From assembly GCA_000002445.1 (NCBI GenBank), contig CP000070.1:832001-896000 (forward strand): DNA of 64,000 nucleotides, in the 5' to 3' direction. The translations under genes and the position numbers were made by a program. The DNA is from Trypanosoma brucei (Eukaryota). This document shows positions 2,810-41,065 of this stretch, one piece after another. The notes beneath the pieces are model-generated. The model had not been told where the DNA came from, did not search any database, and saw nothing but the letters and a program-made list of their open reading frames with translations. Positions within the stretch are counted from its first letter, which is position 1. The number at the start of each line of letters is the position of its first letter.

Positions 2810-4328
2810 TCGAAAGGCATGTTGTATACGGAAGGACGGAGGGAGGGAGTTACAGTGGAAGAACGTCTTTTAAGAAGTGTGAACGTTTATCGCGCGTGCT
2901 TGGGGATGAGAGAAGTTCCTTGTGCATTGTCAATTTGTCTTGTACGTGGGGATGCTGCTGTCACACGCTCTTTTTCTCCACCTTCTAAGAAAGGAGTACC
3001 ACCGATAGGATTTTAGGATGAAGGAGTGCTGGAGGTGCCTAAACGAATTAAATAGCTTAGTAATATGAGGAAGGGAAGGAACACCTTAAATGTTCACGAA
3101 TCACCACCGGGGCACAAAGCCATAGCCGCTACCCACAAATCACGCTCAACGCGCCTCTAACGACAAAGCGAAGGGGTGCTGCAAACGGCTGGCGATAAGT
3201 GGAAATCACAACTACTATTGGGGCCGGCGTTGTGGGTTTTTTCAGTGTGCTTTCGCGTTGTGATGACAATGAGTTCCACTACCATTCACCAACCATCCAC
3301 AAAAGAGGGACGATACGCGGAGTCCCAAAATGAGGAGGACTAATGCGCGATCACTCTCCTCCTCGCGTTTTCGGAAGGGGCGAGGAAAAACTACTCTCAT
3401 AGACAGTTTTCAGCGCCGTCAAACCATGCCGGCGCAGCCGCGGAAACTTCCTAAGGTAACATCTTTCCTCTCCTCCTCCCCCATTTTCCAGAGCAGCCGT
3501 GCGCCTCCTCAGTGACGAGAAGAAAAAAACACCGTCAGACATGGGAACCTCTCTTGCCCAAAGACCGATGTAGATCTGTGACCTACGGCATGCCGTTTAC
3601 CTCCACCAAAAGTGACAAAATCACACCGTGAAATCCACTTTTTTTTTTTTCGACGGCGCTAAGCTACCCCCAGAAGCCAGCCGACCCGACTGACAGACAA
3701 CCACCAGCGAAACATGACCCCTCCTCTGCATCTTAGAAGTCACCTCCATTTCCAGTGCAATTCTTACCGTGCGAGAGAACGAAAGGAACTAGGACCACCA
3801 TTTGCAAAAATGGATCGCCCAAAGCACGAACAGCTTCGACCCAGCTTGCGGGTGGGTTAGGATAGTTGCAATTCCTTCTTTTGGACTATCATCTAAAGCG
3901 CACTAAAACAAAGATTCGGGGGAAGTGAAAACCCACGTCGTGACAGGTCGTTATTAACCTTAACTCTACAACTGTCGTTGCCTTAACCAGTAGGGTTAGT
4001 CCTGTCTCCTTTTATGGTTGGCATTATTCGCTTCTTCTTTTGTTGGGTAGCTAAATTTAAAAAAAAATCTCCGGAGTTTAGCGCAGTTGGTTATTACAGT
4101 TTTCCTTTACACCCCGCTCCATTTAATTCGATTTCCTAGTGTCCGGGTGTCGCCTGCCGAACGTGCATCTGTCCCTAGCTCTCCCCCCCCCCTCTCGCTG
4201 GAAACCTATGTTAGTCTCATCCCCTTATCCCCTCCCCCGAAATGTGTTTTTATTCTCTCTTTTTCCTTCCCCCTCCGTAATATTAATCAACAATACGAAG
4301 CAGGACGGTTTCGGCGGTAACATTCCCT
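2810..4328. promoter_or_regulatory. Convergent strand-switch region (likely RNA pol II transcription termination zone) between the + unit and the minus-strand array
   Basis: The + strand gene 3' end is at 2809 and the minus-strand gene 3' end at 4329. No ORF longer than ~65 aa, T13 tract at ~3640-3657, no tRNA-like T-loop or acceptor sequences found by eye. Confidence 0.5.
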
Positions 4329-5522
4329 TCAAAGCATTCGCAACAATAGAACTGCGGAACAAAGTGCAGCGGCACGAACACCCGAATGTGCTGCCGGATT
4401 GGACTCCGCTCTCATGACAGGTCTTCGCGCCGGTTCTGCAGAATAGTTGGATTTCAGTCGTACCTCCTCTTGTCCCCTTGAGGTGGATTCTTCGTTCACT
4501 CTCCTCGACAACTCCAAACTGTTCAGAATCTCCCCGATCAGTTCCTCGTGAAGCTGGTCATTAGTGAGTTCTGCCTCTTTGTGCCCTATGCATTTCGTCA
4601 ATTCATCCGCGGTAGTTTTTATTTTTTCCATAACCGCATTTTTTGCTTCTTCGAAACGCGCAAACAGGCGGATGACATCCCCAAATATACTCACTTTATT
4701 GGGATCTTCAGTCCACCGCACTGCACCGTAGGAAGTGACGTCACCGTACTCTCCCCCCTTTACATTTAGTTTGCCTTCCACACTTGATGCGAAATTCATC
4801 ACTCCACCACCCCACGTGAAGCTGTGACTCAATGACCCACCTTTTAATAAACCGTCTGTTGCCGTCCTCATCAAGTTGCAACCCCTGTCTTCATTTCGTT
4901 CAATGATGCTCTCCGCACCCAAGCTACTGAAGGAAATGGATGATAGCGCTTCGTGGAGTTGCAAGTTTTTCTCTGCCGACTTCGTTACATGTGAATCCTC
5001 GATTTTGTAAAGGGTTTCAGGTCCAATTGTTCCACGAAAACATTCTTGCAACTTGTCGTGCACCGCTGGCCTGCTCCCTCCCACGCTTATGCAAAACTGC
5101 GACGTCGTGCGTGCCGCCTGTGCAAATGCAAAAATCCACTCTTCCAGTCTTCCGGCTGCTAACCCAGCGGCGGCTGCTGCTAGCGCCGATGCATTCCTCA
5201 TTTCCTCTAACTCCTGCTGGAATGTAAACTCATTCTTCAATACTGTTTTCAAGAGTGTCCTGATGTCTTTACAATCTTTCTCACTAGAAGGTACGCTGTT
5301 TCGCATTACCGATAACTGCAACTGCGCGCTTTTGATCTTCAAATCTGACAGTTTCTTCATAACCGCAGCACTCCCGCTGTTTACTCTGTGTGCTACCCCT
5401 TTAAGATATGTCGATAACTCACACACTTTATTAGCGGCTGTCGCGTTTAGTGCATTCCTTTCATAATAATTTGCACGTGTTTCTTTTCCCAACAGCGCCA
5501 ACAGCACGAACCAAAACCTCAT
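4329..5522 (-). CDS. ESAG6: ESAG6-like transferrin-receptor subunit / VSG-fold surface protein (397 aa) with signal peptide and hydrophobic C-terminal tail (putative GPI signal)
   Basis: ATG at 5520-5522 checked. Signal peptide 'MRFWFVLLALLGKETRA', Ala-rich helices ('ALAAAAAGLAAGRLEEW'), N-glycosylation sites, 'FTWGGGV' motif. C-terminus '...AAALCSAVLLLRML' is hydrophobic. Size and signal peptide match my recollection of T. brucei ESAG6. Not searched. Confidence 0.7.
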   Translation of the reverse strand: MRFWFVLLALLGKETRANYYERNALNATAANKVCELSTYLKGVAHRVNSGSAAVMKKLSDLKIKSAQLQLSVMRNSVPSSEKDCKDIRTLLKTVLKNEFTFQQELEEMRNASALAAAAAGLAAGRLEEWIFAFAQAARTTSQFCISVGGSRPAVHDKLQECFRGTIGPETLYKIEDSHVTKSAEKNLQLHEALSSISFSSLGAESIIERNEDRGCNLMRTATDGLLKGGSLSHSFTWGGGVMNFASSVEGKLNVKGGEYGDVTSYGAVRWTEDPNKVSIFGDVIRLFARFEEAKNAVMEKIKTTADELTKCIGHKEAELTNDQLHEELIGEILNSLELSRRVNEESTSRGQEEVRLKSNYSAEPARRPVMRAESNPAAHSGVRAAALCSAVLLLRML

Positions 5523-5729
5523 TTTGTTCTCTTTATTTAATTATACTTGAGCTTTCACCTTCGTTACTGAGTAAAAACTAAATCACTCGTGCTATTCTTG
5601 ACACAGATTACCATTGTGGTGACAGTCCGGGAGAATACATTCTCAGTCCCATTTTGCTTTGTCCTACCAAACTCTCATTATAATAAACACCACTGCCTCA
5701 CACGCGTAGGTAGCAGCTACGTCCCCCCA

Positions 5730-5747
5730 ACACACACACACACACAC
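5730..5747. repeat. (CA)8 microsatellite upstream of the ESAG6-like gene; copy at ~8115-8133 is (CA)9
   Basis: 'cacacacacacacaca' read directly; length differs between the two duplication copies. Confidence 0.9.
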
Positions 5748-6160
5748 AACATTCCCCTCAATTGCTCACTTGAAAACAAATAGCAACAGTAATAACACAC
5801 ACACCGCAACAAATTGTACCTCAAATACTTGTTTCCTTCCCTACATCCGAACCATCTTATCCAGCCTCCACTCGACACAGTGTTTTGAAGGGAATAAAAA
5901 CCACTTCCAGGATATTGCTAACCAACAACCCTCCTTCTCGTTAATTAACGCCCTTTTCAACCGATTCTCTTTCGGTGTAGATGATACCGATCATCCCTTG
6001 CAGCTTCATACCACCCTACCCTTCATGGCAGCGCCTTGTCGCTTACTTCTAGCTCTGCGTCCGTGTATTATAACCAAGCGGTAGGTAAAACCAACAACCA
6101 CCAAAAAGATAAGAAAAATAATCCTCATTTAAAACCCCCAAAGTTGTACTTTCCTCAATA

Positions 6161-8374
6161 AACTAGGACCACCATTTGCAAAAATGGATCGCCCAAAGGA
6201 CGAACAGCTTCGACCCAGCTTGCGGGTGGGTTAGGATAGTTGCAATTCCTTCTTTTGGACTATCATCTAAAGCGTACTAAAACAAAGATTCGGGAGAAGT
6301 GAAAACCCACGTCGTGACAGGTCGTTATTAACCTTAACTCTACAACTGTCGTTGCCTTAACCAGTAGGGTTAGTCCTGTCTCCTTTTATGGTTGGCATTA
6401 TTCGCTTCTTCTTTTGTTGGGTAGCTAAATTTAAAAAAAAAATCTCCGGAGTTTAGCGCAGTTGGTTATTACAGTTTTCCTTTACACCCCGCTCCATTTA
6501 ATTCGATTTCCTAGTGTCCGGGTGTCGCCTGCCGAACGTGCATCTGTCCCTAGCTCTCCCCCCCCCTCTCGCTGGAAACCTATGTTAGTCTCATCCCCTT
6601 ATCCCCTCCCCCGAAATGTGTTTTTATTCTCTCTTTTTCCTTCCCCCTCCGTAACATTAATCAACAATACGAAGCAGGACGGTTTCGGCGGTAACATTCC
6701 CTTCAAAGCATTCGCAACAATAGAACTGCGGAACAAAGTGCAGCGGCACGAACACCCGAATGTGCTGCCGGATTGGACTCCGCTCTCATGACAGGTCTTC
6801 GCGCCGGTTCTGCAGAATAGTTGGATTTCAGTCGTACCTCCTGTCACTTTATTCCTAACCGCCCAAACCCCGCACTGAGGTCCCACTTCACAGCAACTCC
6901 AGATAGTTTTGTATCGCCTTGAATTGCCGTTCGTGAAGCTGGTCATTAGTGAGTTCTGCCTCTTTGTGCCCTATGCATTTCGTCAATTCATCCGCGGTAG
7001 TTTTTATTTTTTCCATAACCGCATTTTTTGCTTCTTCGAAACGCGCAAACAGGCGGATGACATCCCCAAATATACTCACTTTATTGGGATCTTCAGTCCA
7101 CCGCACTGCACCGTAGGAAGTGACGTCACCGTACTCTCCCCCCTTTACATTTAGTTTGCCTTCCACACTTGATGCGAAATTCATCACTCCACCACCCCAC
7201 GTGAAGCTGTGACTCAATGACCCACCTTTTAATAAACCGTCTGTTGCCGTCCTCATCAAGTTGCAACCCCTGTCTTCATTTCGTTCAATGATGCTCTCCG
7301 CACCCAAGCTACTGAAGGAAATGGATGATAGCGCTTCGTGGAGTTGCAAGTTTTTCTCTGCCGACTTCGTTACATGTGAATCCTCGATTTTGTAAAGGGT
7401 TTCAGGTCCAATTGTTCCACGAAAACATTCTTGCAACTTGTCGTGCACCGCTGGCCTGCTCCCTCCCACGCTTATGCAAAACTGCGACGTCGTGCGTGCC
7501 GCCTGTGCAAATGCAAAAATCCACTCTTCCAGTCTTCCGGCTGCTAACCCAGCGGCGGCTGCTGCTAGCGCCGATGCATTCCTCATTTCCTCTAACTCCT
7601 GCTGGAATGTAAACTCATTCTTCAATACTGTTTTCAAGAGTGTCCTGATGTCTTTACAATCTTTCTCACTAGAAGGTACGCTGTTTCGCATTACCGATAA
7701 CTGCAACTGCGCGCTTTTGATCTTCAAATCTGACAGTTTCTTCATAACCGCAGCACTCCCGCTGTTTACTCTGTGTGCTACCCCTTTAAGATATGTCGAT
7801 AACTCACACACTTTATTAGCGGCTGTCGCGTTTAGTGCATTCCTTTCATAATAATTTGCACGTGTTTCTTTTCCCAACAGCGCCAACAGCACGAACCAAA
7901 ACCTCATTTTGTTCTCTTTATTTAATTATACTTGAGCTTTCACCTTCGTTACTGAGTAAAAACTAAATCACTCGTGCTATTCTTGACACAGATTACCATT
8001 GTGGTGACAGTCCGGGAGAATACATTCTCAGTCCCATTTTGCTTTGTCCTACCAAACTCTCATTATAATAAACACCACTGCCTCACACGCGTAGGTAGCA
8101 GCTACGTCCCCCCAACACACACACACACACACAACATTCCCCTCAATTGCTCACTTGAAAACAAATAGCAACAGTAATAACACACACACCGCAACAAATT
8201 GTACCTCAAATACTTGTTTCCTTCCCTACATCCGAACCATCTTATCCAGCCTCCACTCGACACAGTGTTTTGAAGGGAATAAAAACCACTTCCAGGATAT
8301 TGCTAACCAACAACCCTCCTTCTCGTTAATTAACGCCCTTTTCAACCGATTCTCTTTCGGTGTAGATGATACCG
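6161..8374. repeat. Copy 2 of the 2.37-kb tandem duplication (ends at 'gatgataccg', then unique sequence) carrying an ESAG7-like gene
   Basis: Identity with 3787-5994 except for a 70-80 bp replaced cassette (6852-6935 vs 4469-4540) and a few flank SNPs or indels. Confidence 0.9.
6888..7907 (-). CDS. ESAG7: ESAG7-like transferrin-receptor subunit (339 aa), identical to the ESAG6-like copy over 330 aa but lacking the hydrophobic tail
   Basis: ATG at 7905-7907 checked. Identical to the 4329-5522 product until '...ELTNDQLHE', then 'RQFKAIQNYLELL*' with the stop inside the swapped cassette. The 339-aa size fits ESAG7. Confidence 0.7.
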   Translation of the reverse strand: MRFWFVLLALLGKETRANYYERNALNATAANKVCELSTYLKGVAHRVNSGSAAVMKKLSDLKIKSAQLQLSVMRNSVPSSEKDCKDIRTLLKTVLKNEFTFQQELEEMRNASALAAAAAGLAAGRLEEWIFAFAQAARTTSQFCISVGGSRPAVHDKLQECFRGTIGPETLYKIEDSHVTKSAEKNLQLHEALSSISFSSLGAESIIERNEDRGCNLMRTATDGLLKGGSLSHSFTWGGGVMNFASSVEGKLNVKGGEYGDVTSYGAVRWTEDPNKVSIFGDVIRLFARFEEAKNAVMEKIKTTADELTKCIGHKEAELTNDQLHERQFKAIQNYLELL

Positions 8375-26887: not shown

Positions 26888-29800
26888 TCAATGGTGCGCC
26901 CATGGCCCTCCCAAATGCGTTGTTGGGCAACCGGTTGCGTCGCCCTCGTCCTCATCGTCTTCACCTTCCTCAACAGAGCGCAAAAGCGATATCTCACGCA
27001 AAAGCTCCTTTGCACTCGTGGCAGAAACCTGACAACCACGAATGCGCGAGTCCAGATCCGTCATCAGTCCACCTATGTTGCGATTTAGCTCATCCACCAC
27101 ATCGTCGTGTTGTCTCCCTTTAGACTGTAATTCGACCATAAGTGCCTCTTTTTCACGCTTCAAACGCTCAAGCTGATGGCGCATCGAGCTAATGATATCT
27201 GTCCCACCCACGGCCAGATTGCTTGCAGACGGTACAGTCACCGCTGAGGTGGTGGAATTGCCAGTCTCTCCGAGATGCTCTGACGATGTCCAGGGGAGGG
27301 GAACGGGCATACCACCCTGTAGTTCCTCGATTCTGGCCTCCAGTTGTTGCATGACTGCCTCCACCTCACGCATCTCGTCGTCCTTAGCGTCTTGCAGGTC
27401 AAAGAGTTCCTGTTCACGGGCCTCCAGGGCCATCAACGCCGCCTTCTCCGCTGCTCGGGCTCCTTCAAGGACATTAACAAACTCATCGAGTTTACCAATG
27501 GTGTCAGTGTATTCAAACCCCTTCTCGTCCAACTCAAGCAACAGTGCAGCAATTTTTCTGTTAAGTGCATCAAGATCCTCTTTGTGAGTGATCTCCCGCT
27601 GTTCTAACTCTTCCCTCAGGGCAGCGTTCTCTTCGCTAAGTTTCTTAACCTCCTGTTCAAGTTCACCTACGAGATAAACGCCACTCATTAACTCTTCAAC
27701 CTTTCCACGGGCCACCTCCACGTGCGAACTTCGTGCCTTTTCAAGCATGTTGAACAGTGAGAGAAGCATCTCGTCACGGAACTTTTTGTCCCTATCTTGG
27801 GTGCAACGAAGTTCAAGTAACTCTTCCTCACGGGCAAAAAGCTCACTGCGCACCGTGCACTCAGCCTGACGAGCCTCATCCAATAGTACGACCATCTCCT
27901 CCATATTCTCCAGCATTTCGGTGTGTTCTGTGGCCCGCTCCTCAAGTTCGTCAAGTAAGTCACCTTCACGTTTCGCGCGAATACGGTCACGGTTGAGGAA
28001 CCCAACGACCAATAAGCACTGCAGCGAAGACAAAGAAGAGCGTTCAATAACCAAACGAGACAAGACCTCATCAACGAAAACACCCTGCTCATCAACCATG
28101 ACACCGCAGGCACGCCGCAAGAATGAAGACATCGTCAAATTGCCGCCACCAGCATCGTTAGTCCCAATACTACTGCCCAAAAGCAGCCGCTGCGTTTCCC
28201 TGAATGGGTAATGCTGAAGCCGTTGAGCAATTTCCGAAGGATGAATGCTTGAAGGATGGGTGACATCAAATTCAACCACACGACCACTCGGAGTGAACGT
28301 TACATTACTCACACAATCCCTGTAGACACGACATGCATTAGCAGCATCAACAACAACAGCACAACGTAACTCTTCCGGTTTATTCTTCAGCAACTCATCT
28401 AACCTCTCACCTTGAAGTTGAACACACTGAGAACTTACCATGCAATCTCCCTCCATCGAAGCCATCCACCGAGAATCATGTTTGCGCTCCTCCTCGCCGC
28501 CACGCGAAGGCTCATTCAACGCTTCCTCTAAGTCGTCCAGAGCGTTCGACATCAACACAGAAGGGCGATCATTGTGCGAAGAAGCGTCCACCACATCGAC
28601 ACCACTCCTCAGTTTTTTCAAAGCATCTACAGCTTTACGAAGCCCATCGCTCTGAGATACCAATTCATTGGTCTTGCGCTCATTCACAGCCTGCAGTTCC
28701 ATCACCTGCTCCTCCATATCACGAAGTCGTCTTTGTTGCTTGTCCAACTCATCTACCCTCAGTTCATCAGTGCCCCGCAATTGTTCATTCTGTGTCAGAA
28801 ATTCTTTCAGACGGTCACCAAGTTCCTGAAGTAGTTCGCCCTGAACAACAAGTTCATGAGATTTAATATCAAGTTCCTTCCGCAACTCGTCGTTTTCCGA
28901 AGATATCTCAGAGAGCTTCAGACGCAATTCCTTCACATCAGATAAAAGACATTCGATTTCTTTAGAATTTTCATCATCAACACTACGGAGATCGATATTT
29001 TCCCGCTTCACAAGAATCAACTCATTTTTGATAACACCAATACCATCACCGTCACCAGAAACATCCACATCAGCACTCTTCTCCTTCAAAAGATATTCAC
29101 CATCAGAATCAATTTTCATAGCACCGTCCTTCGCATCCCGAGAAACATCACGATCATCATTACGTAAAGAAAAAAGTTCGTTACTTCGTCTCAGTTCCTC
29201 ATTCTCAGTGCGTAGTTCAGCAAGTTGCTCCTCCATCTCATGAAGTTTCTCATTCTGCACATCAAGTTCACGTGCCTTGTCCCCTTCAGTATTGCGAAGC
29301 TCCTCATTCTCAGCGCGTAGTTCAGCAAGTTGCTCTTCCATCTCATGAAGTTTCTCATTCTGCACATCAAGTTCACGTGCCTTGTCACCATCAGTATTGC
29401 GAAGCTCCTCATTTTCAGCGCGTAGTTCAGCAAGTTGCTCCTCCATCTCATGAAGTTTCTCATTCTGCACATCAAGTTCACGTGCCTTGTCACCATCAGT
29501 ATTGCGAAGCTCCTCATTTTCAGCGCGTAGTTCGGCAAGTTGCTCCTCCATCTCATGAAGTTTCTCATTCTGCACATCAAGTTCACGTGCCTTGTCACCA
29601 TCAGTATTGCGAAGCTCCTCATTTTCAGCGCGTAGTTCAGCAAGTTGCTCCTCCATCTCATGAAGTTTCTCATTCTGCACATCAAGTTCACGTGCCTTGT
29701 CACCATCAGTATTGCGAAGCTCCTCATTTTCAGCGCGTAGTTCAGCAAGTTGCTCCTCCATCTCATGAAGTTTCTCATTCTGCACATCAAGTTCACGTGC

Positions 29801-32800
29801 CTTGTCACCATCAGTATTGCGAAGCTCCTCATTTTCAGCGCGTAGTTCGGCAAGTTGCTCCTCCATCTCATGAAGTTTCTCATTCTGCACATCAAGTTCA
29901 CGTGCCTTGTCACCATCAGTATTGCGAAGCTCCTCATTTTCAGCGCGTAGTTCAGCAAGTTGCTCCTCCATCTCATGAAGTTTCTCATTCTGCACATCAA
30001 GTTCACGTGCCTTGTCACCATCAGTATTGCGAAGCTCCTCATTTTCAGCGCGTAGTTCAGCAAGTTGCTCCTCCATCTCATGAAGTTTCTCATTCTGCAC
30101 ATCAAGTTCACGTGCCTTGTCACCATCAGTATTGCGAAGCTCCTCATTTTCAGCGCGTAGTTCAGCAAGTTGCTCCTCCATCTCATGAAGTTTCTCATTC
30201 TGCACATCAAGTTCACGTGCCTTGTCCCCTTCAGTATTGCGAAGCTCCTCATTTTCAGCGCGTAGTTCAGCAAGTTGCTCCTCCATCTCATGAAGTTTCT
30301 CATTCTGCACATCAAGTTCACGTGCCTTGTCACCATCAGTATTGCGAAGCTCCTCATTTTCAGCGCGTAGTTCAGCAAGTTGCTCCTCCATCTCATGAAG
30401 TTTCTCATTCTGCACATCAAGTTCACGTGCCTTGTCACCATCAGTATTGCGAAGCTCCTCATTTTCAGCGCGTAGTTCAGCAAGTTGCTCTTCCATCTCA
30501 TGAAGTTTCTCATTCTGTACATCAAGTTCACGTGCCTTGTCACCTTCAGTATTGCGAAGCTCCTCATTCTCAGCGCGTAGTTCAGCAAGTTGCTCCTCCA
30601 TCTCATGAAGTTTCTCATTCTGTACATCAAGTTCACGTGCCTTGTCACCATCAGTATTGCGAAGCTCCTCATTCTCAGCGCGTAGTTCAGCAAGTTGCTC
30701 CTCCATCTCATGAAGTTTCTCATTCTGCACATCAAGTTCACGTGCCTTGTCACCATCAGTATTGCGAAGCTCCTCATTTTCAGCGCGTAGTTCAGCAAGT
30801 TGCTCCTCCATCTCATGAAGTTTCTCATTCTGCACATCAAGTTCACGTGCCTTGTCACCATCAGTATTGCGAAGCTCCTCATTCTCAGCGCGTAGTTCAG
30901 CAAGTTGCTCCTCCATCTCATGAAGTTTCTCATTCTGCACATCAAGTTCACGTGCCTTGTCACCATCAGTATTGCGAAGCTCCTCATTCTCAGCGCGTAG
31001 TTCAGCAAGTTGCTCCTCCATCTCATGAAGTTTCTCATTCTGTACATCAAGTTCACGTGCCTTGTCACCATCAGTATTGCGAAGCTCCTCATTCTCAGCG
31101 CGTAGTTCAGCAAGTTGCTCTTCCATCTCATGAAGTTTCTCATTCTGCACATCAAGTTCACGTGCCTTGTCACCATCAGTATTGCGAAGCTCCTCATTCT
31201 CAGCGCGTAGTTCAGCAAGTTGCTCCTCCATCTCATGAAGTTTCTCGTTCTGCACATCAAGTTCACGTGCCTTGTCACCATCAGTATTGCGAAGCTCCTC
31301 ATTTTCAGCGCGTAGTTCAGCAAGTTGCTCCTCCATCTCATGAAGTTTCTCATTCTGCACATCAAGTTCACGTGCCTTGTCACCATCAGTATTGCGAAGC
31401 TCCTCATTCTCAGCGCGTAGTTCAGCAAGTTGCTCCTCCATCTCATGAAGTTTCTCATTCTGCACATCAAGTTCACGTGCCTTGTCCCCTTCAGTATTGC
31501 GAAGCTCCTCATTCTCAGTGCGTAGTCCATTTATCTTCTGTTCAAGTTCTTTTTGTAGGTAGAGAAGTTGCTGATTTCTTACTTCTAGTTCTCTTAATTT
31601 AGCGTGCTGCTCCTCTCGTATTCCTGTATTTTCGGTGCGCACTTCTCGGAGTTGTTCAACTAGTTCTTGGACTCTTCCTGATTGGACGCATAGATCGAGT
31701 GACTTTTCCACTTCGTGTTCGCGTAGCTGTTCGTTTTCTTTTTGTAGTTCGTTGGCATCTTGCTGTAGTTGTCGTAGTTGTGAATTTAGCTCCTCTATTT
31801 GATTTGTTTTACTGTTACAAATTTGCTGGAGATTGCTGTGAGATTCAGATAAAGTTCTCATCTGCCGATGTACATCCTGTATGTATTCGCTCTGCTTTTT
31901 TGCATCTACAGATATAATTTCATTATTTTTACAGAGTTCCTCATTTTCCCTAGCCAGAGTATTTAATTGGTTCTCTACAGCAGTTAGCCGCGCCTGTTGT
32001 GCAGCTAGTTCATTTGTTTTCTCCTCTTGTAATCGGAGAAGATCATCCCTCTCAGACGAAACATCATGCAGTTTTGCGCCAAGTTCACAGAGTTCTTGTT
32101 CTAGAGTATTCAGTTGTTGACGGCCTTCGTCGATTTGCTCCTTCAATAGATCTAGGCCATCCTTAGGTTCATTTAATTTCAACAGCAGCCGCTGCGTTTC
32201 CCTGAATGGGTAATGCTGAAGCCGTTGAGCAATTTCCGAAGGATGAATGCTTGAAGGATGGGTGACATCAAATTCAACCACACGACCACTCGGAGTGAAC
32301 GTTACATTACTCACACAATCCCTGTAGACACGACATGCATTAGCAGCATCAACAACAACAGCACAACGTAACTCTTCCGGTTTATTCTTCAGCAACTCAT
32401 CTAACCTCTCACCTTGAAGTTGAACACACTGAGAACTTACCATGCAATCTCCCTCCATCGAAGCCATCCACCGAGAATCATGTTTCCGCAGCTCATCATT
32501 TTCAGCACGAATCGCCTTCAGACTCTCTTGTAGCAAAGAAATTTTGGACTCAACGTTAGCAATCAGTTCATTAAGAGACTCAATTTCCTTTGCGTTATCA
32601 GATTCGGCAAGACGAAGTTGCTCATTTTCCTCCTTAAGTTGTTGCAAATGTCGCTCCACCTCGCACACATGTTTCTTGAGCAAATCAAGCTCACGGGCTT
32701 TTTCTTCTTCAGCACGGTGGAGCTCCTCGCTTTCTTTACTCAACTTTTTGATGTGTTGATCCTTTGCCGAACAGAGTTCATTTTGCGCATCAAGCTCAAT

Positions 32801-35800
32801 CACCTTCTCTCTGACACACTCCCTCAATGCATCCACTTCCTCTTGCATCTTCTTCACCTTTTCCTCCATTTCCTCCAGATGACGACTCCGCAAGTCAAGT
32901 TCACGTGCCTTTTCGGCCTCCGAATCCCGAAGCCCACCGTTTTCAGTGCGAAGTTCAGCAAGTTGCTCTTCCATCTCATTAAGTTTCTCATTCTGCACAT
33001 CAAGTTCACGTGCTTTCGCCTCATCAGAGCCGCGAAGTTGCTCATTTTGAACTAAAAATTCTTGAAGCTTACCGTCCAAGTCACCTAGTAAACCTTCCTG
33101 AACAACAAGATCATTCGACTTACACTCCAAAGTTCTCTTGAGATCACAATTTTCTTCCACTAAAGCATCTAATTGGTTCTCTACAGCAGTTAGCCGCGCC
33201 TGTTGTGCAGCTAGTTCATTTGTTTTCTCCTCTTGTAATCGGAGAAGATCATCCCTCTCAGACGAAACATCATGCAGTTTTGCGCCAAGTTCACAGAGTT
33301 CTTGTTCTAGAGTATTCAGTTGTTGACGGCCTTCGTCGATTTGCTCCTTCAATAGATCTAGGCCATCCTTAGGTTCATTTAATTTCAACAGCAGCCGCTG
33401 CGTTTCCCTGAATGGGTAATGCTGAAGCCGTTGAGCAATTTCCGAAGGATGAATGCTTGAAGGATGGGTGACATCAAATTCAACCACACGACCACTCGGA
33501 GTGAACGTTACATTACTCACACAATCCCTGTAGACACGACATGCATTAGCAGCATCAACAACAACAGCACAACGTAACTCTTCCGGTTTATTCTTCAGCA
33601 ACTCATCTAACCTCTCACCTTGAAGTTGAACACACTGAGAACTTACCATGCAATCTCCCTCCATCGAAGCCATCCACCGAGAATCATGTTTCCGCAGCTC
33701 ATCATTTTCAGCACGAATCGCCTTCAGACTCTCTTGTAGCAAAGAAATTTTGGACTCAACGTTAACAATCAGTTCATTAAGAGACTCAATTTCCTTTGCG
33801 TTATCAAAATCAGTAAGACGAAGTTGCTCATTTTCCTCCTTAAGTTGTTGCAAATGCCGTTCCATCTCATGAAGTTTCTCATTCTGTACATCAAGTTCAC
33901 GTGCCTTGTCACCATCAGTATTGCGAAGCTCCTCATTCTCAGCGCGTAGTTCAGCAAGTTGCTCCTCCATCTCATGAAGTTTCTCATTCTGCACATCAAG
34001 TTCACGTGCCTTGTCACCATCAGTATTGCGAAGCTCCTCATTTTCCTCCTTAAGTTGTTGCAAATGCCGTTCCATCTCATGAAGTTTCTCATTCTGTACA
34101 TCAAGTTCACGTGCCTTGTCACCATCAGTATTGCGAAGCTCCTCATTCTCAGCGCGTAGTTCAGCAAGTTGCTCCTCCATCTCATGAAGTTTCTCATTCT
34201 GCACATCAAGTTCACGTGCCTTGTCACCATCAGTATTGCGAAGCTCCTCATTCTCAGCGCGTAGTTCAGCAAGTTGCTCTTCCATCTCATGAAGTTTCTC
34301 ATTCTGCACATCAAGTTCACGTGCCTTGTCCCCTTCAGTATTGCGAAGCTCCTCATTCTCAGCGCGTAGTTCAGCAAGTTGCTCCTCCATCTCATGAAGT
34401 TTCTCATTCTGCACATCAAGTTCACGTGCCTTGTCACCATCAGTATTGCGAAGCTCCTCATTCTCAGCGCGTAGTTCAGCAAGTTGCTCTTCCATCTCAT
34501 GAAGTTTCTCATTCTGCACATCAAGTTCACGTGCCTTGTCCCCTTCAGTATTGCGAAGCTCCTCATTCTCAGCGCGTAGTTCAGCAAGTTGCTCCTCCAT
34601 CTCATGAAGTTTCTCATTCTGCACATCAAGTTCACGTGCCTTGTCACCATCAGTATTGCGAAGCTCCTCATTCTCAGCGCGTAGTTCAGCAAGTTGCTCC
34701 TCCATCTCATGAAGTTTCTCATTCTGTACATCAAGTTCACGTGCCTTGTCACCATCAGTATTGCGAAGCTCCTCATTCTCAGCGCGTAGTTCAGCAAGTT
34801 GCTCTTCCATCTCATGAAGTTTCTCATTCTGCACATCAAGTTCACGTGCCTTGTCACCATCAGTATTGCGAAGCTCCTCATTCTCAGCGCGTAGTTCAGC
34901 AAGTTGCTCTTCCATCTCATGAAGTTTCTCATTCTGCACATCAAGTTCACGTGCCTTGTCACCATCAGTATTGCGAAGCTCCTCATTCTCAGCGCGTAGT
35001 TCAGCAAGTTGCTCTTCCATCTCATGAAGTTTCTCATTCTGTACATCAAGTTCACGTGCCTTGTCACCATCAGTATTGCGAAGCTCCTCATTTTCAGCGC
35101 GTAGTTCAGCAAGTTGCTCCTCCATCTCATGAAGTTTCTCATTCTGCACATCAAGTTCACGTGCCTTGTCACCTTCAGTATTGCGAAGCTCCTCATTTTC
35201 AGCGCGTAGTTCAGCAAGTTGCTCTTCCATCTCATGAAGTTTCTCATTCTGTACATCAAGTTCACGTGCCTTGTCACCATCAGTATTGCGAAGCTCCTCA
35301 TTTTCAGCGCGTAGTTCGGCAAGTTGCTCCTCCATCTCATGAAGTTTCTCATTCTGTACATCAAGTTCACGTGCCTTGTCACCATCAGTATTGCGAAGCT
35401 CCTCATTTTCAGCGCGTAGTTCGGCAAGTTGCTCCTCCATCTCATGAAGTTTCTCATTCTGTACATCAAGTTCACGTGCCTTGTCACCATCAGTATTGCG
35501 AAGCTCCTCATTTTCAGCGCGTAGTTCAGCAAGTTGCTCCTCCATCTCATGAAGTTTCTCATTCTGCACATCAAGTTCACGTGCCTTGTCCCCTTCAGTA
35601 TTGCGAAGCTCCTCATTCTCAGCGCGTAGTTCAGCAAGTTGCTCCTCCATCTCATGAAGTTTCTCATTCTGCACATCAAGTTCACGTGCCTTGTCCCCTT
35701 CAGTATTGCGAAGCTCCTCATTCTCAGTGCGTAGTTCAGCAAGTTGCTCCTCCATCTCATGAAGTTTCTCATTCTGCACATCAAGTTCACGTGCCTTGTC

Positions 35801-38800
35801 CCCTTCAGTATTGCGAAGCTCCTCATTTTCAGCGCGTAGTTCAGCAAGTTGCTCCTCCATCTCATGAAGTTTCTCATTCTGTACATCAAGTTCACGTGCC
35901 TTGTCACCATCAGTATTGCGAAGCTCCTCATTCTCAGCGCGTAGTTCAGCAAGTTGCTCTTCCATCTCATGAAGTTTCTCATTCTGCACATCAAGTTCAC
36001 GTGCCTTGTCCCCTTCAGTATTGCGAAGCTCCTCATTCTCTGCGCGTAGTTCAGCAAGTTGCTCCTCCATCTCATGAAGTTTCTCATTCTGTACATCAAG
36101 TTCACGTGCCTTGTCACCATCAGTATTGCGAAGCTCCTCATTCTCAGCGCGTAGTTCAGCAAGTTGCTCCTCCATCTCATGAAGTTTCTCATTCTGTACA
36201 TCAAGTTCACGTGCCTTGTCACCATCAGTATTGCGAAGCTCCTCATTCTCAGCGCGTAGTTCAGCAAGTTGCTCTTCCATCTCATGAAGTTTCTCATTCT
36301 GCACATCAAGTTCACGTGCCTTGTCCCCTTCAGTATTGCGAAGCTCCTCATTCTCAGCGCGTAGTTCGGCAAGTTGCTCCTCCATCTCATGAAGTTTCTC
36401 ATTCTGCACATCAAGTTCACGTGCCTTGTCCCCTTCAGTATTGCGAAGCTCCTCATTCTCAGCGCGTAGTTCAGCAAGTTGCTCCTCCATCTCATGAAGT
36501 TTCTCATTCTGCACATCAAGTTCACGTGCCTTGTCCCCTTCAGTATTGCGAAGCTCCTCATTTTCAGCGCGTAGTTCAGCAAGTTGTTCCTCCATCTCAT
36601 GAAGTTTCTCATTCTGCACATCAAGTTCACGTGCCTTGTCCCCTTCAGTATTGCGAAGCTCCTCATTTTCAGCGCGTAGTTCGGCAAGTTGCTCCTCCAT
36701 CTCATGAAGTTTCTCATTCTGCACATCAAGTTCACGTGCCTTGTCCCCTTCAGTATTGCGAAGCTCCTCATTCTCAGCGCGTAGTTCAGCAAGTTGCTCC
36801 TCCATCTCATGAAGTTTCTCATTCTGCACATCAAGTTCACGTGCCTTGTCACCATCAGTATTGCGAAGCTCCTCATTCTCAGCGCGTAGTTCAGCAAGTT
36901 GCTCCTCCATCTCATGAAGTTTCTCATTCTGCACATCAAGTTCACGTGCCTTGTCACCATCAGTATTGCGAAGCTCCTCATTTTCAGCGCGTAGTTCAGC
37001 AAGTTGCTCTTCCATCTCATGAACGTATCCCTGCAGCTGGACGTCACCTGATGCTGCTTCCCTAATGCGATGAAGCTCCTCATTTTCAGCGCGTAGTTCA
37101 GCAAGTTGCTCTTCCATCTCATGAACGTATCCCTGCAGCTCGACGTCACCTGATGCTGCTTCCCTAATGCGATGAAGCTCCTCATTTTCAGCGCGTAGTT
37201 CAGCAAGTTGCTCTTCCATCTCATGAACGTATCCCTGCAGCTCGACGTCACCTGATGCTGCTTCCCTAATGCGATGAAGCTCCTCATTTTCAGCGCGTAG
37301 TTCAGCAAGTTGCTCTTCCATCTCATGAACGTATCCCTGCAGCTCGACGTCACCTGAAGCTGCTTCCCTAATGCAATGAAGCTCTTCTTTTTCTATTAGT
37401 TGTCCTATTATCTGTTGATGTGGTCGCATGGGGCTGTGTTGTCCTTGTTTGTCTTCTTTTATTCGTACTGCTTTTCTTTCTTCGGGGGACTCTTCGCTTA
37501 ATGGTTCTTCGGTTTTTTGTTGCCTCTGACGATGTGCTCTTATGTTACATATATTATCTTTGTCGTGATCACGTAACGATTCGTCTTGTTCATGTAGCTT
37601 GCTGTGCTCTGTTGGGGTTTCTTTTCTGTACGTTTCCCTTGTCTGACATTCTTCTGAACTTTCGACGGATGTGTTGGTGCGGGTTGTTTCTTCTTCGCTA
37701 GTTTCTTTCTCTAAAAGATATCCGTCGTCTTTTGCGTCCTCGGTTTTTGTTTGAATAACTTCTTCTTTGTTTTCTTTTGTCCGGCGTAGTAAAGTGTTTT
37801 CGTCATTCAGTATGCGTAGCCTCTCCTCCAATGCTTTTATGTGCCCTCGTAGTTCCTCAATCTGAGCAATTTCCTCCCTGGTGGACATGAATAAATCACC
37901 ATCGTCCAGGGTTTCGTGCAAACTGTGAGAATAAGAAGGACTGTCTTGGTGATCTCCTTCCCTCCGGCCTCTATTGCTGTGTTGGTGAGGGTCACTTTCT
38001 CCTTGTTTCCCGATCGTTTGCATTAGTTGCAACACTGAAAGAAACTCTGCCCTCCTGACCCGTTGTGCGAGATCGTATTGTGACACGGAAGGAGGGTGAG
38101 AGACGGTGAACACGACAGATGTGTAGTACTCATTGAAACAAATATCGTCAATATCACTGATATCTACCTGGCAAGCACGAGCGGCATCCACAAGAACGGC
38201 TTTGTTGATATCTTCTCTATTGTTGATTATGTGCGTCCTCCATTCACGGAGATCGATATTCTTTTTGAGTGTGGATGTGACCCTCTCCCCATGTTGGTCT
38301 TTATGTCCCTCGATGATGTAGCCCTCTCTGCTCCCACCGCGAGTTGATGCATGCAGCGGAGACTCGTGCTCACTTACCCCCTGGTCCGTAGCGTCGTATC
38401 CTCTAATCTGATCACCGCTGCTTTCCCTTTGTAGTTCCTCTATTTCTTTGCGGTAGTGCTCCAGCTGACGAAGATCTTCGTCATGGCGCTGCTTAAGTTC
38501 GCTGATCTTGATTATCCCTTCTTGGCGCGTCTTCTCTGCCAGTTCACGCTGCTCGTTCAGGAGCTGCTGTAGCTCGTTGTTCACCCGCTGCGCTTCTTCA
38601 ATTTGTTGTAAGAGGTCACTGTTCTCTTCATGGGCAATATCAGTGGAATTTTGCCGTGGCTGAGAGTCCACTGCTTCGTCCTTCGGCTGCAAACCACCAC
38701 AGCTGAACCCCCCTTCCAACGCATGATGAAGAGCAACGTGGAGCAGCGGGCGGTGAATGGTAGCGCACCAGTCAATGAACTGCACATCCTTGTCCGTAAT

Positions 38801-39892: not shown

Positions 39893-41065
39893 TGTAGGAA
39901 AGAGAACACGGAACACTAGCTAAAGCACCCAAAAGTACCTGGTCCCAAAACCCTGGTTGACACTTTGCTACTCTCCCCCTTCCCTCAATCGCTCTACTAC
40001 ACCTCGCTCACAAGTTCTACTGACTTCGCACTCAGCGGAGTTCGGATTCTTCCAAGACACGGCCAAATCCTCTCCTCCTCCTCCTCCTGTTTTTGCCCTT
40101 TTTTTTTCGTTCTATTACAAAAATTAAACAAAACTTTTGTCCTCCCCAACACTCACCCTCGCGGTGGCAAACACCAGTAGCAGTGGTGGTGTCGCCTCGT
40201 CACACTCGAAATGAACTACCGACTTGGGTGTGTTAACTCAGCCTTTCCACGGGGTTAGATCGCTCTTCAACTTTTCTGGCCCCTGTAGGTGCGGTTCTGA
40301 CCGTTCTTCGGGAATACTATAATGTACAACGATGCAAGCAGAGGAAACAGGAGAAATGAAATGATGGACACGACCCACTTGTAAAATCGACTAGTGCGTG
40401 GGTCTAAAGATAACACACAAATGCACAGTTATTTGTTTCTTACAAAGAAATCCGCACACTCAACGATACTTTTTCGACCTCTTCCTGCCGCTTGCAGTCT
40501 GACGCTCTTGCAACGATCCGCAAAAGCACAAGGCCAACACCAAACAGATACGATGCGATATGATATTATACGTATACCCACGTAATATCCAGAAAGTAGC
40601 GCATCTGCATCCTCCCCCCCCCCTCGTTGCAGCCACCTGTTTCTACGTGCGGGCACAATAAAGGAAGAAGGTCGCTTCCTTCTCACTATCAAGTGGAGGT
40701 CAAAGGAAAGACCACCCCTCTGGTCTGAGGCTTAAAATGAAAACAACGATGTGTCGGCAACTTCTGCAGTTCATTCAGGAGAATGGCACAACGTCGCATG
40801 TACGACCACCGTCGCCACCAGCAGCGGCACCGACAGAAGTTGATAGTTATAATTTTTTCCCCCTTTTAAAGTTCTGTACCGCGTAATCACCCGATGCCTC
40901 CTCCCTTCCTGTCGTTTGCTCGATGGGGAAGATAAATGTGAACGACAAATGTGGCAGTCACTTGTGAAGGGTCAAAATCAAAACATACCAATACACCACC
41001 AACTACGTCCTCAGCCTGACACCGCACCTTCCCACGCACGCACTCGCATGGGGCACCACACGCTC

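What the first reader, a model, noticed from the sequence alone, without database searches (positions are those of the whole stretch)
4469..4540. A ~70-80 bp cassette swap converts a GPI-anchored-type subunit into a truncated one, like the ESAG6/ESAG7 split
The copies diverge only at 4469-4540 versus 6852-6935, then re-converge. In copy 2 the cassette introduces a stop (6888-6890) after '...RQFKAIQNYLELL'. In copy 1 the frame continues for 68 more residues through sequence that is 3'UTR in copy 2 (4329-4468 equals 6712-6851), and ends in a hydrophobic tail 'AAALCSAVLLLRML'. The same DNA is coding in one paralogue and untranslated in the other. A heterodimeric receptor with one anchored and one unanchored subunit is the established design of the trypanosome transferrin receptor.
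Basis: partly seen in the sequence, partly recalled or inferred. Interest (0 to 1): 0.6.

Follow-up and report, generated by a model that had tools for sequence, protein, structure and literature searches.

The report
Known chromosome-7 ESAG7/ESAG6 transferrin receptor pair
The two tandem genes are the already annotated chromosome-internal ESAG7 and ESAG6 transferrin-receptor genes of Trypanosoma brucei TREU927, and the short block that truncates one copy while leaving leftover anchor-signal DNA in its 3' UTR has already been published for this gene family, so the finding is real but ordinary.

Summary
Two minus-strand tandem genes are 100% identical over 1,444 bp (4546-5989 = 6931-8374) and 99.1% identical over 683 bp (3787-4468 = 6161-6842). 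They differ in one block: 77 nt at 4469-4545 versus 88 nt at 6843-6930.

These genes are not merely "like" ESAG6/ESAG7. They are Tb927.7.3250 (ESAG6, 397 aa, XP_845948.1) and Tb927.7.3260 (ESAG7, 339 aa, XP_845949.1) of T. brucei TREU927 chromosome 7. The literature describes them as the only non-expression-site ESAG6/7 pair.

Both tails match their class in expression-site copies. A 2026 eLife paper already reports that all ESAG7 genes keep residual GPI-signal coding sequence behind a premature stop.

"Cassette swap" is not supported as a mechanism. The first 13 codons of the block are homologous in register, and both blocks are as diverged from expression-site versions as the rest of the gene. 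Old class-specific blocks with recently homogenised flanks (gene conversion) fit better.

The one locus-specific oddity is that both subunits share an identical, mostly ESAG7-like ligand-binding head.

Novelty: already known. Interest: low.

The parts
6888..7907 (-). ESAG7 coding sequence (Tb927.7.3260, XP_845949.1), 339 aa. It is the unanchored transferrin-receptor subunit and the upstream gene of the pair, as in expression sites.
   Evidence: ORF. 100% identical to the TREU927 protein. PDB 6soy_B ESAG7 matches at E = 2e-166. The tail HERQFKAIQNYLELL is orthologous to ..YEEFEAIQKYLGSL of 17 expression-site ESAG7s.
4329..5522 (-). ESAG6 coding sequence (Tb927.7.3250, XP_845948.1), 397 aa. It has the C-terminal extension and hydrophobic GPI-type tail and is the last gene of the minus-strand transcription unit.
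   Evidence: ORF. Exact match to the TREU927 protein. PDB 6soy_A ESAG6 matches at E = 5e-180 over residues 1-396. Tail hydrophobicity lies in the range of expression-site ESAG6.
4469..4545 (-). ESAG6-specific block, 77 nt (ORF nt 978-1054, codons 327-352: ELIGEILNSLELSRRVNEESTSRGQ).
   Evidence: Orthologous to ..EFIWETINRLELSKRVSEQ.. of expression-site ESAG6.
6843..6930 (-). ESAG7-specific block, 88 nt: 13 codons (RQFKAIQNYLELL), the stop TGA at 6888-6890, and 45 nt of non-alignable 3' UTR.
   Evidence: The first 39 nt are in register with the ESAG6 block at 21/39 identity. The rest is not alignable (755 of 1,000 shuffles score as high).
6703..6842 (-). Residual ESAG6-tail and GPI-signal coding sequence, untranslated in ESAG7. 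It is out of frame with the ESAG7 ORF, and a TGA sits in its own frame just upstream of it.
   Evidence: 100% identical to 4329-4468. Three-frame translation. The same feature is reported for all expression-site ESAG7s (PMC13186567).
4329..4468 (-). Last 46 codons plus stop of ESAG6: EEVRLKSNYSAEPARRPVMRAESNPAAHSGVRAAALCSAVLLLRML*, holding the putative omega region and hydrophobic tail.
4004..4328 (-). ESAG6 3' UTR, delimited by homology. The same sequence at about 6378-6702 forms the distal part of the ESAG7 3' UTR.
   Evidence: Colinear with and 74% identical to the 338-nt BES1 ESAG6 3' UTR from the supplement of PMC6312234. The BES1 end aligns at about 4004 and about 6378. The poly(A) sites are inferred, not measured.
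4546..5989 (-). Copy-1 half of the 1,444-bp block that is 100% identical in both copies (partner 6931-8374). It covers codons 1-326 (signal peptide plus the whole VSG-like ectodomain) and 467 bp of 5' flank.
6931..8374 (-). Copy-2 half of the identical 1,444-bp block.
5990..6160 (.). Unique 171-bp spacer between the two repeat units.
   Evidence: Identity ends exactly at 5989/8374 and at 3787/6161.
2810..4328 (.). Convergent strand-switch region. Plus-strand genes end by 2809, and every ORF of at least 250 aa assigned to a gene from 4329 to 63933 is on the minus strand.
   Evidence: [quoted passage not shown] No tRNA genes were found.

Best explanation
Window 3787-8374 holds the single chromosome-internal ESAG7-ESAG6 tandem pair of T. 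brucei brucei TREU927 chromosome 7 (Tb927.7.3260, then Tb927.7.3250). It lies on the minus strand at the end of a transcription unit, next to a convergent strand-switch region.

The genes encode the two subunit types of the trypanosome transferrin receptor. ESAG6 carries a C-terminal extension with a GPI-addition signal. ESAG7 ends 13 codons into a short class-specific block.

Behind the ESAG7 stop, the DNA returns to the ESAG6 sequence. ESAG7 therefore carries the leftover, unreadable GPI-signal coding sequence and then the same 3' UTR as ESAG6.

Shown here:
- Gene identity.
- The exact anatomy of the block.
- Orthology of each tail to its class in expression-site copies.
- Homology of the 3' UTR to the BES1 ESAG6 3' UTR.

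Inferred:
1. The class-specific blocks are old. Repeated gene conversion between the neighbouring copies has erased every other difference, giving 100% identity on both sides of the block.
2. The shared 3' UTR gives both mRNAs the same post-transcriptional control, such as the iron-starvation response shown for expression-site ESAG6 and ESAG7 UTRs.
3. The 397-aa product is GPI-anchored.
For: Identity of the genes:
- The 339-aa and 397-aa products are exact matches to TREU927 XP_845949.1 and XP_845948.1, on a 2,205,233-bp contig.
- PDB 6SOY ESAG6 and ESAG7 match at E = 5e-180 and 2e-166. Pfam assigns the VSG A-type domain.
- The neighbouring 13,005-bp ORF with 35-aa repeats is FAZ10, Tb927.7.3330.
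- PMC3605285 names the Tb927.7.3250/3260 pair at a strand-switch region. PMC6071061 equates them with ESAG6 and ESAG7.

Anatomy.

Class-specific tails: conserved in 17 ESAG7 and 19 ESAG6 sequences.

Prior publication of the feature:
- PMC13186567 states that all ESAG7 genes keep residual GPI-signal coding behind a premature stop, with lesions at ORF nt 985-1068. Here the block is at nt 978-1054 (ESAG6) and 978-1065 (ESAG7).
- The BES1 ESAG7 3' UTR primer arm contains the ESAG6 "FNYT" coding homologue.

Old blocks with homogenised flanks:
- The chr7 ectodomain is about 80% identical to expression-site proteins, and the ESAG6 tail is 51% identical.
- The end of the ESAG7 coding sequence shows many mismatches and two small gaps against the 41-nt BES1 primer arm.
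- The two chr7 copies are nevertheless 100% identical on both sides of the block.
- Conversion between adjacent ESAG7 and ESAG6 is documented in BES7. Concerted evolution of the family is proposed in PMC3605285.

3' UTR:
- 74% identical to and colinear with the BES1 ESAG6 3' UTR.
- UTR-mediated iron regulation is reported in PMC6312234 and PMC11858757.

GPI signal:
- Mean Kyte-Doolittle hydropathy (KD) of the last 14 residues is 2.11, against 1.76-2.46 for expression-site ESAG6 and below 0 for ESAG7 tails.
- Rule-based omega candidates are A372 and A378.
Against: - No GPI predictor (NetGPI, PredGPI, big-PI) could be run. The position homologous to the likely expression-site omega region is S374-N375-P376, and proline next to omega is disfavoured (established knowledge), so anchoring is likely but not shown.
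- No expression-site genomic DNA could be fetched. DNA-level comparison of the block rests on two primer sequences and a machine-read supplement alignment.
- Perfect identity of 1,444 bp could partly reflect assembly of a tandem repeat. No reads were available.
- Expression of these two copies, as opposed to cross-mapped expression-site transcripts, is not established by the papers read.
Confidence: 0.9

Rival explanations
1. Recent tandem duplication of one gene, followed by import of a short patch (a true cassette swap) from an ESAG6 or ESAG7 donor elsewhere. This one event would have turned one duplicate into the other class.
For: The flanks are 100% identical right up to the block edges, which is what a short conversion patch in a young duplicate would look like. 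Short-tract exchange among ESAG6/7 copies and mosaic genes is documented.
Against: Both blocks are well diverged from all sampled expression-site versions:
- The ESAG7 tail RQFKAIQNYLELL against EFEAIQKYLGSL/WFL.
- The ESAG6 tail at 51% identity.
- The BES1 primer arm, which aligns only with many mismatches and two small gaps.

No recent donor is visible. The first 39 nt of the two blocks are homologous in register, which is not expected of an unrelated insert. An unsampled or lost donor cannot be excluded.
Confidence: 0.07
2. Sequencing or assembly artefact. Either the block difference is an error, or the perfect identity of the flanks comes from collapsing or consensus-polishing two somewhat different tandem copies.
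For: A 2.4-kb tandem repeat with 1,444 bp of perfect identity is the kind of region where assemblies can homogenise copies. No reads could be inspected.
Against: - Both block versions encode tails conserved in dozens of independently sequenced genes, so the block difference is biological.
- The assembly keeps six small differences between the copies at 3825-4281 and a unique 171-bp spacer, so the copies were resolved.
- The pair is annotated as two genes and discussed as a pair.
Confidence: 0.03
3. The pair is a decaying relic rather than a working receptor locus. The ESAG6-type copy has lost efficient GPI addition, and the two identical heads cannot form a transferrin-binding site, so the anchored/unanchored design is only vestigial here.
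For: - Heads are identical, with 16 of 27 class-diagnostic positions in the ESAG7 state, 6 in the ESAG6 state and 5 in neither.
- The ESAG7-specific Cys230/Cys247 pair and the sequons at 234/235/250 are missing.
- ESAG6 and ESAG7 homodimers are reported not to bind transferrin (PMC5426795).
- Proline sits at the position homologous to the likely omega+1/+2.
Against: - Both ORFs are intact over 339 and 397 codons, with signal peptide, conserved cysteines and class-specific tails.
- The hydrophobic tail and alternative omega sites are present.
- The 3' UTR is conserved with the regulated BES1 UTR.
- The subunits could also pair with expression-site partners.
Confidence: 0.2

Closest known systems
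Expression-site ESAG6/ESAG7 of T. brucei (heterodimeric transferrin receptor, PDB 6SOY/6SOZ)
   Same: - Same gene family and same gene order (ESAG7 then ESAG6).
- Same VSG-like ectodomain.
- Same class-specific tails.
- Same position of the truncating lesion: ORF nt about 978-1065 here against 985-1068 reported.
- Same leftover GPI-signal DNA in the ESAG7 3' UTR.
- Homologous 3' UTR.
   Different: - Chromosome-internal, at a convergent strand-switch region, not behind a telomeric expression-site promoter.
- About 20% protein divergence from all expression-site copies, more than ESAG6 and ESAG7 differ from each other (0.84 identity).
- The two heads are identical, whereas expression-site pairs differ sharply at residues about 207-264.
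- The ESAG7 block is 11 nt longer than the ESAG6 block, and the stop arises in register. The published description for expression sites is small deletions plus a frameshift.
BES7 'ESAG6a' of Lister 427, an ESAG7 carrying an ESAG6-type GPI tail
   Same: A product of exchange between adjacent ESAG7 and ESAG6 copies: an ESAG7-type head joined to an ESAG6 tail. It is 27/27 ESAG7 at diagnostic positions (PMC2567434; PMC13186567). The chr7 397-aa protein likewise combines a mostly ESAG7-like head with an ESAG6 tail.
   Different: In BES7 the conversion ran through the block, so both subunits are anchored and the partner keeps a true ESAG6 head. On chr7 the conversion stopped at both edges of the block, so the tails stay different and the heads became the same.
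T. congolense Fam15 transferrin-receptor-like tandem pairs (GPI+ and GPI-)
   Same: Tandem pairs of VSG-A-like genes that differ in predicted anchoring (PMC3605285). One copy in L001 is cut short by a stop, with the tail coding still in frame downstream.
   Different: Only 23-34% identical. The C-terminal architecture is different (..ALLARYxKxKG + tail) and there is no FxAIQxYL motif. The truncation seen in L001 is a simple stop or one-base lesion at a different place.
Procyclin-associated genes PAG1/PAG2 (Fam14) and A-type VSGs
   Same: The same VSG A-type N-terminal domain (Pfam PF00913). They are the distant hits in the exhaustive search.
   Different: 22-29% identity, other loci, and no ESAG6- or ESAG7-type tails.

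Membership tests
ESAG6 (GPI-anchored transferrin-receptor subunit) | Full-length homology to ESAG6, including the C-terminal extension beyond the ESAG7 end | tested here: met
   6soy_A matches at E = 5e-180 over residues 1-396. The tail aligns with 19 ESAG6 sequences. Exact match to XP_845948.1.
ESAG6 (GPI-anchored transferrin-receptor subunit) | C-terminal GPI-addition signal (small omega residues, spacer, hydrophobic tail) | tested here: inconclusive
   Rule-based check only. Mean KD of the last 14 residues is 2.11, within the ESAG6 range. Omega candidates are A372 and A378, but the position homologous to the likely expression-site omega region is S-N-P. No trained predictor was available.
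ESAG6 (GPI-anchored transferrin-receptor subunit) | ESAG6-class residues in the subunit-specific region (about residues 207-264) | tested here: not met
   Of 27 fully diagnostic columns, only 6 are in the ESAG6 state, 16 are in the ESAG7 state and 5 in neither. The ESAG6 sequons at 235 and 250 are absent.
ESAG7 (unanchored transferrin-receptor subunit) | Class-specific short tail (F-x-A-I-Q-x-Y-L ...) with no hydrophobic C-terminus | tested here: met
   RQFKAIQNYLELL against EFEAIQKYLGSL/WFL/GFL in 17 ESAG7s. Tail KD is below 0.
ESAG7 (unanchored transferrin-receptor subunit) | Residual GPI-signal coding sequence downstream of the premature stop | tested here: met
   6703-6842 is 100% identical to ESAG6 coding 4329-4468. 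The feature is described for all expression-site ESAG7s in PMC13186567.
ESAG7 (unanchored transferrin-receptor subunit) | ESAG7-specific extra cysteine pair (Cys230/Cys247; extra disulphide noted in PMC3320590) | tested here: not met
   Both positions are Ser in the chr7 proteins.
Expression-site-associated gene in the strict sense | Located in a telomeric bloodstream expression site, just downstream of its promoter | tested here: not met
   The pair is flanked by housekeeping-type genes and FAZ10 in a chromosome core, at a convergent strand-switch region. PMC3605285 calls it the only non-ES pair. A promoter-like sequence upstream was not searched for.
Trypanosome transferrin receptor (functional heterodimer) | The ESAG6:ESAG7 heterodimer binds host transferrin | not testable with these tools
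   Needs co-expression and binding assays. Identical heads and the reported non-binding of homodimers make this an open question for this pair.

The most novel reading that the evidence does not exclude
On chromosome 7 the two receptor subunits have become identical in the whole ligand-binding ectodomain (codons 1-326, 1,444 bp at 100%). Only the 77/88-nt tail block has escaped homogenisation. If real, the block is a conversion-resistant island. It would record an ESAG6/ESAG7 split older than the heads suggest.

The locus would also be a natural experiment: a one-anchor dimer with symmetric, mostly ESAG7-like heads that lack the ESAG7 disulphide. There are two possible outcomes:
- It cannot bind transferrin alone, and serves only as a partner or a sequence reservoir for expression-site copies.
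- It binds, showing that head asymmetry is dispensable.

I found no statement of this in the papers searched.
Probability: 0.25. Interest if true: 0.4.

Novelty: already known. Interest (0 to 1): 0.12.

Why it matters
It matters little beyond confirming the annotation. The receptor design, the gene pair and the leftover anchor-signal DNA in ESAG7 are all in the literature.

The useful residue is practical:
- Tb927.7.3250/3260 are the identifiers under which most transcriptomic and proteomic studies report "the" transferrin receptor.
- The two copies differ only in the 77/88-nt block and six 3' UTR positions.
- They are about 20% diverged at the protein level from the expression-site genes that are actually expressed at high level.

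Reads and peptides assigned to them therefore need care.

The identical heads also offer a cheap test of whether subunit asymmetry is required for transferrin binding.

Tried and rejected
- **Fetching expression-site or TREU927 DNA by exact protein look-up.** This failed for the two window proteins and for two expression-site proteins. DNA-level comparison of the block with expression-site genes was limited to primer sequences and a machine-read supplement alignment of ESAG6 3' UTRs.
- **Two word-indexed protein searches.** Both returned only six clusters, all T. brucei ESAG6/7. T. congolense and PAG relatives appeared only in the exhaustive HMMER search.
- **Global alignment of the two blocks.** It scored no better than shuffles (198 of 500 reach the score). 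That at first suggested unrelated sequences, but the in-register test of the first 39 nt showed real homology.
- **T. congolense truncated copies.** I checked whether they share the ESAG7 tail motif, which would have dated the split before speciation. They do not; the architecture differs.
- **Published omega site or GPI prediction for Tb927.7.3250.** None was found.
- **Papers not held.** The receptor structure paper and the 1997 EMBO J paper were unavailable.
- **tRNA scan of the window.** Nothing was found.
Full report
**1. What is in the sequence**

Two minus-strand ORFs lie in tandem: 6888-7907 (339 aa) and 4329-5522 (397 aa). BLASTN of the two repeat units shows two matching stretches:
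- 4546-5989 = 6931-8374 at 100% over 1,444 bp.
- 3787-4468 = 6161-6842 at 99.1% over 683 bp.

These are separated by a block that does not match: 77 nt (4469-4545) against 88 nt (6843-6930). Identity ends exactly at the block edges and at the outer repeat edges, and a unique 171-bp spacer (5990-6160) separates the units.

The six small differences in the downstream stretch all lie at 3825-4281. The 140 nt that end the longer ORF (4329-4468) are identical to 6703-6842 behind the stop of the shorter ORF.

The errors are numerical:
- The copy-2 coordinates are about 9 nt off.
- The copy-1 block ends at 4545.
- The longer product has 58 extra residues, not 68. About 46 codons lie in DNA that is untranslated in the other copy.

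**2. What the genes are**

- Pfam assigns both products to the A-type VSG domain.
- The PDB search gives full-length matches to the two chains of the T. brucei transferrin receptor. ESAG6 (6soy_A) matches at E = 5e-180 over residues 1-396. ESAG7 (6soy_B) matches at E = 2e-166 over residues 1-328.
- Both window products are exact matches to T. brucei brucei TREU927 proteins XP_845949.1 (339 aa) and XP_845948.1 (397 aa), on a 2,205,233-bp contig.
- Further along the window, a 13,005-bp ORF with about 55 copies of a 35-aa repeat matches the published description of FAZ10, Tb927.7.3330 (PMC5358337). This fixes the location on chromosome 7.
- Jackson et al. [quoted passage not shown]
- The window agrees. 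Plus-strand genes end by 2809. Every ORF of at least 250 aa assigned to a gene from 4329 onward is on the minus strand; the plus-strand ORFs in that list lie within larger minus-strand ORFs.
- Other papers use these identifiers directly for ESAG6 and ESAG7.

The finding is thus not something that resembles the ESAG6/ESAG7 split. It is that split, in an annotated gene pair.

**3. The block compared with expression-site genes**

I aligned the two chr7 proteins with 17 ESAG7 and 19 ESAG6 sequences from expression sites of several strains and subspecies.
- Every ESAG7 ends ..YEEFEAIQKYL(GSL/WFL/GFL). The chr7 copy ends ..HERQFKAIQNYLELL.
- Every ESAG6 continues ..YEEFIWETINRLELSKRVSEQ... to a hydrophobic end. 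The chr7 copy reads ..HEELIGEILNSLELSRRVNEE... to ..AAALCSAVLLLRML.

Each chr7 tail is therefore the orthologue of its class.

[quoted passage not shown] It attributes the premature stop to small deletions and a frameshift between ORF nucleotides 985 and 1068 (PMC13186567). The chr7 block occupies ORF nt 978-1054 (ESAG6) and 978-1065 (ESAG7), the same place.

A published BES1 ESAG7 3' UTR primer arm (AATGGAGTAAAGGCGAATTCAACTATACTG) contains the homologue of the ESAG6 "FNYT" codons. This is independent DNA evidence for the same re-convergence in an expression site.

**4. Swap or divergence**

- A global alignment of the two blocks scores no better than shuffles.
- The first 39 nt, however, align without gaps and in frame at 21/39 identity (4 of 20,000 shuffles reach this). 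That gives 5 of 13 identical residues, including the shared N-x-L-E-L.
- The ESAG7 stop sits in register opposite an arginine codon of ESAG6.
- Only the remaining 38 versus 49 nt are unalignable, and the 11-nt length difference puts the downstream GPI-signal DNA out of frame. A TGA also sits in that frame just before the sequences re-converge.

The block is thus a strongly diverged homologous stretch plus indels, not a foreign cassette.

Neither block is a recent import:
- The chr7 ESAG6 tail is 51% identical to expression-site tails.
- The end of the ESAG7 coding sequence shows many mismatches and two small gaps against the 41-nt BES1 primer arm.
- The ectodomain is about 80% identical to expression-site proteins.

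The simplest reading is that both class-specific blocks are old at this locus and that gene conversion between the neighbours has recently erased all other differences. Exchange between adjacent ESAG7 and ESAG6 is documented. The BES7 "ESAG6a" is 27/27 ESAG7 at diagnostic positions yet carries the ESAG6 tail. Concerted evolution of the family has also been proposed.

This step is inference. A patch from an unsampled donor cannot be excluded.

**5. Anchor signal and 3' UTR**

No trained GPI predictor was available, so I used a rule-based check.
- Mean Kyte-Doolittle hydropathy (KD) of the last 14 residues is 2.11. Expression-site ESAG6 tails give 1.76-2.46 and all ESAG7 tails are below 0.
- Candidate omega sites are A372 and A378.
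- The position homologous to the likely expression-site omega region reads S-N-P, and proline next to omega is disfavoured (established knowledge).

Anchoring is therefore likely but not shown.

Downstream of the ESAG6 stop, the sequence is colinear with and 74% identical to the 338-nt BES1 ESAG6 3' UTR taken from the supplement of PMC6312234. This places the homologous poly(A) region near 4004, and near 6378 in the ESAG7 copy.

The ESAG7 mRNA would then carry 45 nt of block, 140 nt of dead GPI-signal coding and the same roughly 325-nt UTR. Iron-starvation control through the 3' UTR has been shown for expression-site ESAG6 (PMC6312234) and is reported for ESAG7 (PMC11858757). Shared control of the two chr7 mRNAs is a reasonable but untested inference.

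**6. The one locus-specific oddity**

Expression-site ESAG6 and ESAG7 differ sharply at residues about 207-264 (46-61% identity in those alignment windows). On chromosome 7 the two heads are identical.
- At 27 columns that fully separate the classes, the shared chr7 head has 16 ESAG7 states, 6 ESAG6 states and 5 in neither.
- It lacks the ESAG7-specific Cys230/Cys247 pair and the sequons at 234/235/250.
- Homodimers of either subunit are reported not to bind transferrin (PMC5426795).

It is therefore open whether this pair can make a working receptor by itself. I found no comment on this in the papers searched. Assembly homogenisation of the repeat could not be ruled out without reads.

**7. 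Distant relatives**

The exhaustive search found only T. congolense transferrin-receptor-like proteins, PAG1/PAG2 and VSGs, at 22-34% identity. T. congolense tails have a different architecture and no ESAG7-type motif. One T. congolense copy is cut short by a stop with the tail coding still in frame behind it. This parallels the T. brucei lesion but is not homologous to it.

**8. Verdict**

- The functional reading is right.
- "Cassette swap" is not supported as a mechanism.
- The whole feature is already known.
- Interest is low. The identical heads are a minor point that could be tested cheaply.

Noticed in passing
window 26888-39916 (-), repeats 29088-37329: A giant ORF (13,005 bp, 4,334 aa from the first ATG at 39892) with about 55 copies of a 105-bp (35-aa) repeat in two arrays. 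It matches the published description of FAZ10, Tb927.7.3330 (13,005-bp ORF, 52 repeats of 35 aa).
   Followed up: yes
window 4546-5522 and 6931-7907: The two receptor subunits have identical ectodomains (codons 1-326). The shared head is a mosaic: 16 ESAG7-type, 6 ESAG6-type and 5 unique states at 27 diagnostic positions. It lacks the ESAG7-specific Cys230/Cys247 pair and the N-glycosylation sequons at 234/235/250.
   Followed up: partly
window 3825-4281 versus 6199-6655: The only differences between the copies outside the block are three substitutions (3825, 3901, 3921), one further substitution (4281) and two one-base indels in homopolymer runs (4058, 4183). All lie in the shared 3' UTR or flank. 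They are usable as copy-specific markers.
   Followed up: partly
L001 6600-6800 (T. congolense IL3000 contig CAEQ01002464) and L002 2855-2951: A T. congolense transferrin-receptor-like copy ends ..ARYQKLKG*. The residual tail coding (STPTSVFILNKTTKHFCNLTVLL*) is still in frame downstream and is homologous to the ..KGWIPPSSALNPRKATRHFSILLALL tail of a full-length paralogue. This is an independent case of truncation that leaves the tail DNA behind. That copy may be a pseudogene, because its ORF is short at the N-terminus.
   Followed up: partly
protein P0034 (T. b. rhodesiense ESAG6 variant, 411 aa): This ESAG6 entry leaves the normal frame near the omega region and reads ..PTRQQYIRVFLPLHFVVQFYCLECCEGRM... 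That is the same alternative frame as the ESAG7 reading frame continued across window 6703-6842 (..SPIRQHIRVFVPLHFVPQFYCCECFEGNV..). It is a frameshifted allele or a sequencing error in that record.
   Followed up: no
window 2810-4328: A 1.5-kb convergent strand-switch region with no ORF assigned to a gene and no tRNA genes. It contains homopolymer and C-rich tracts (for example 3640-3652 and 4187-4200). It was not examined further for termination-associated features.
   Followed up: no
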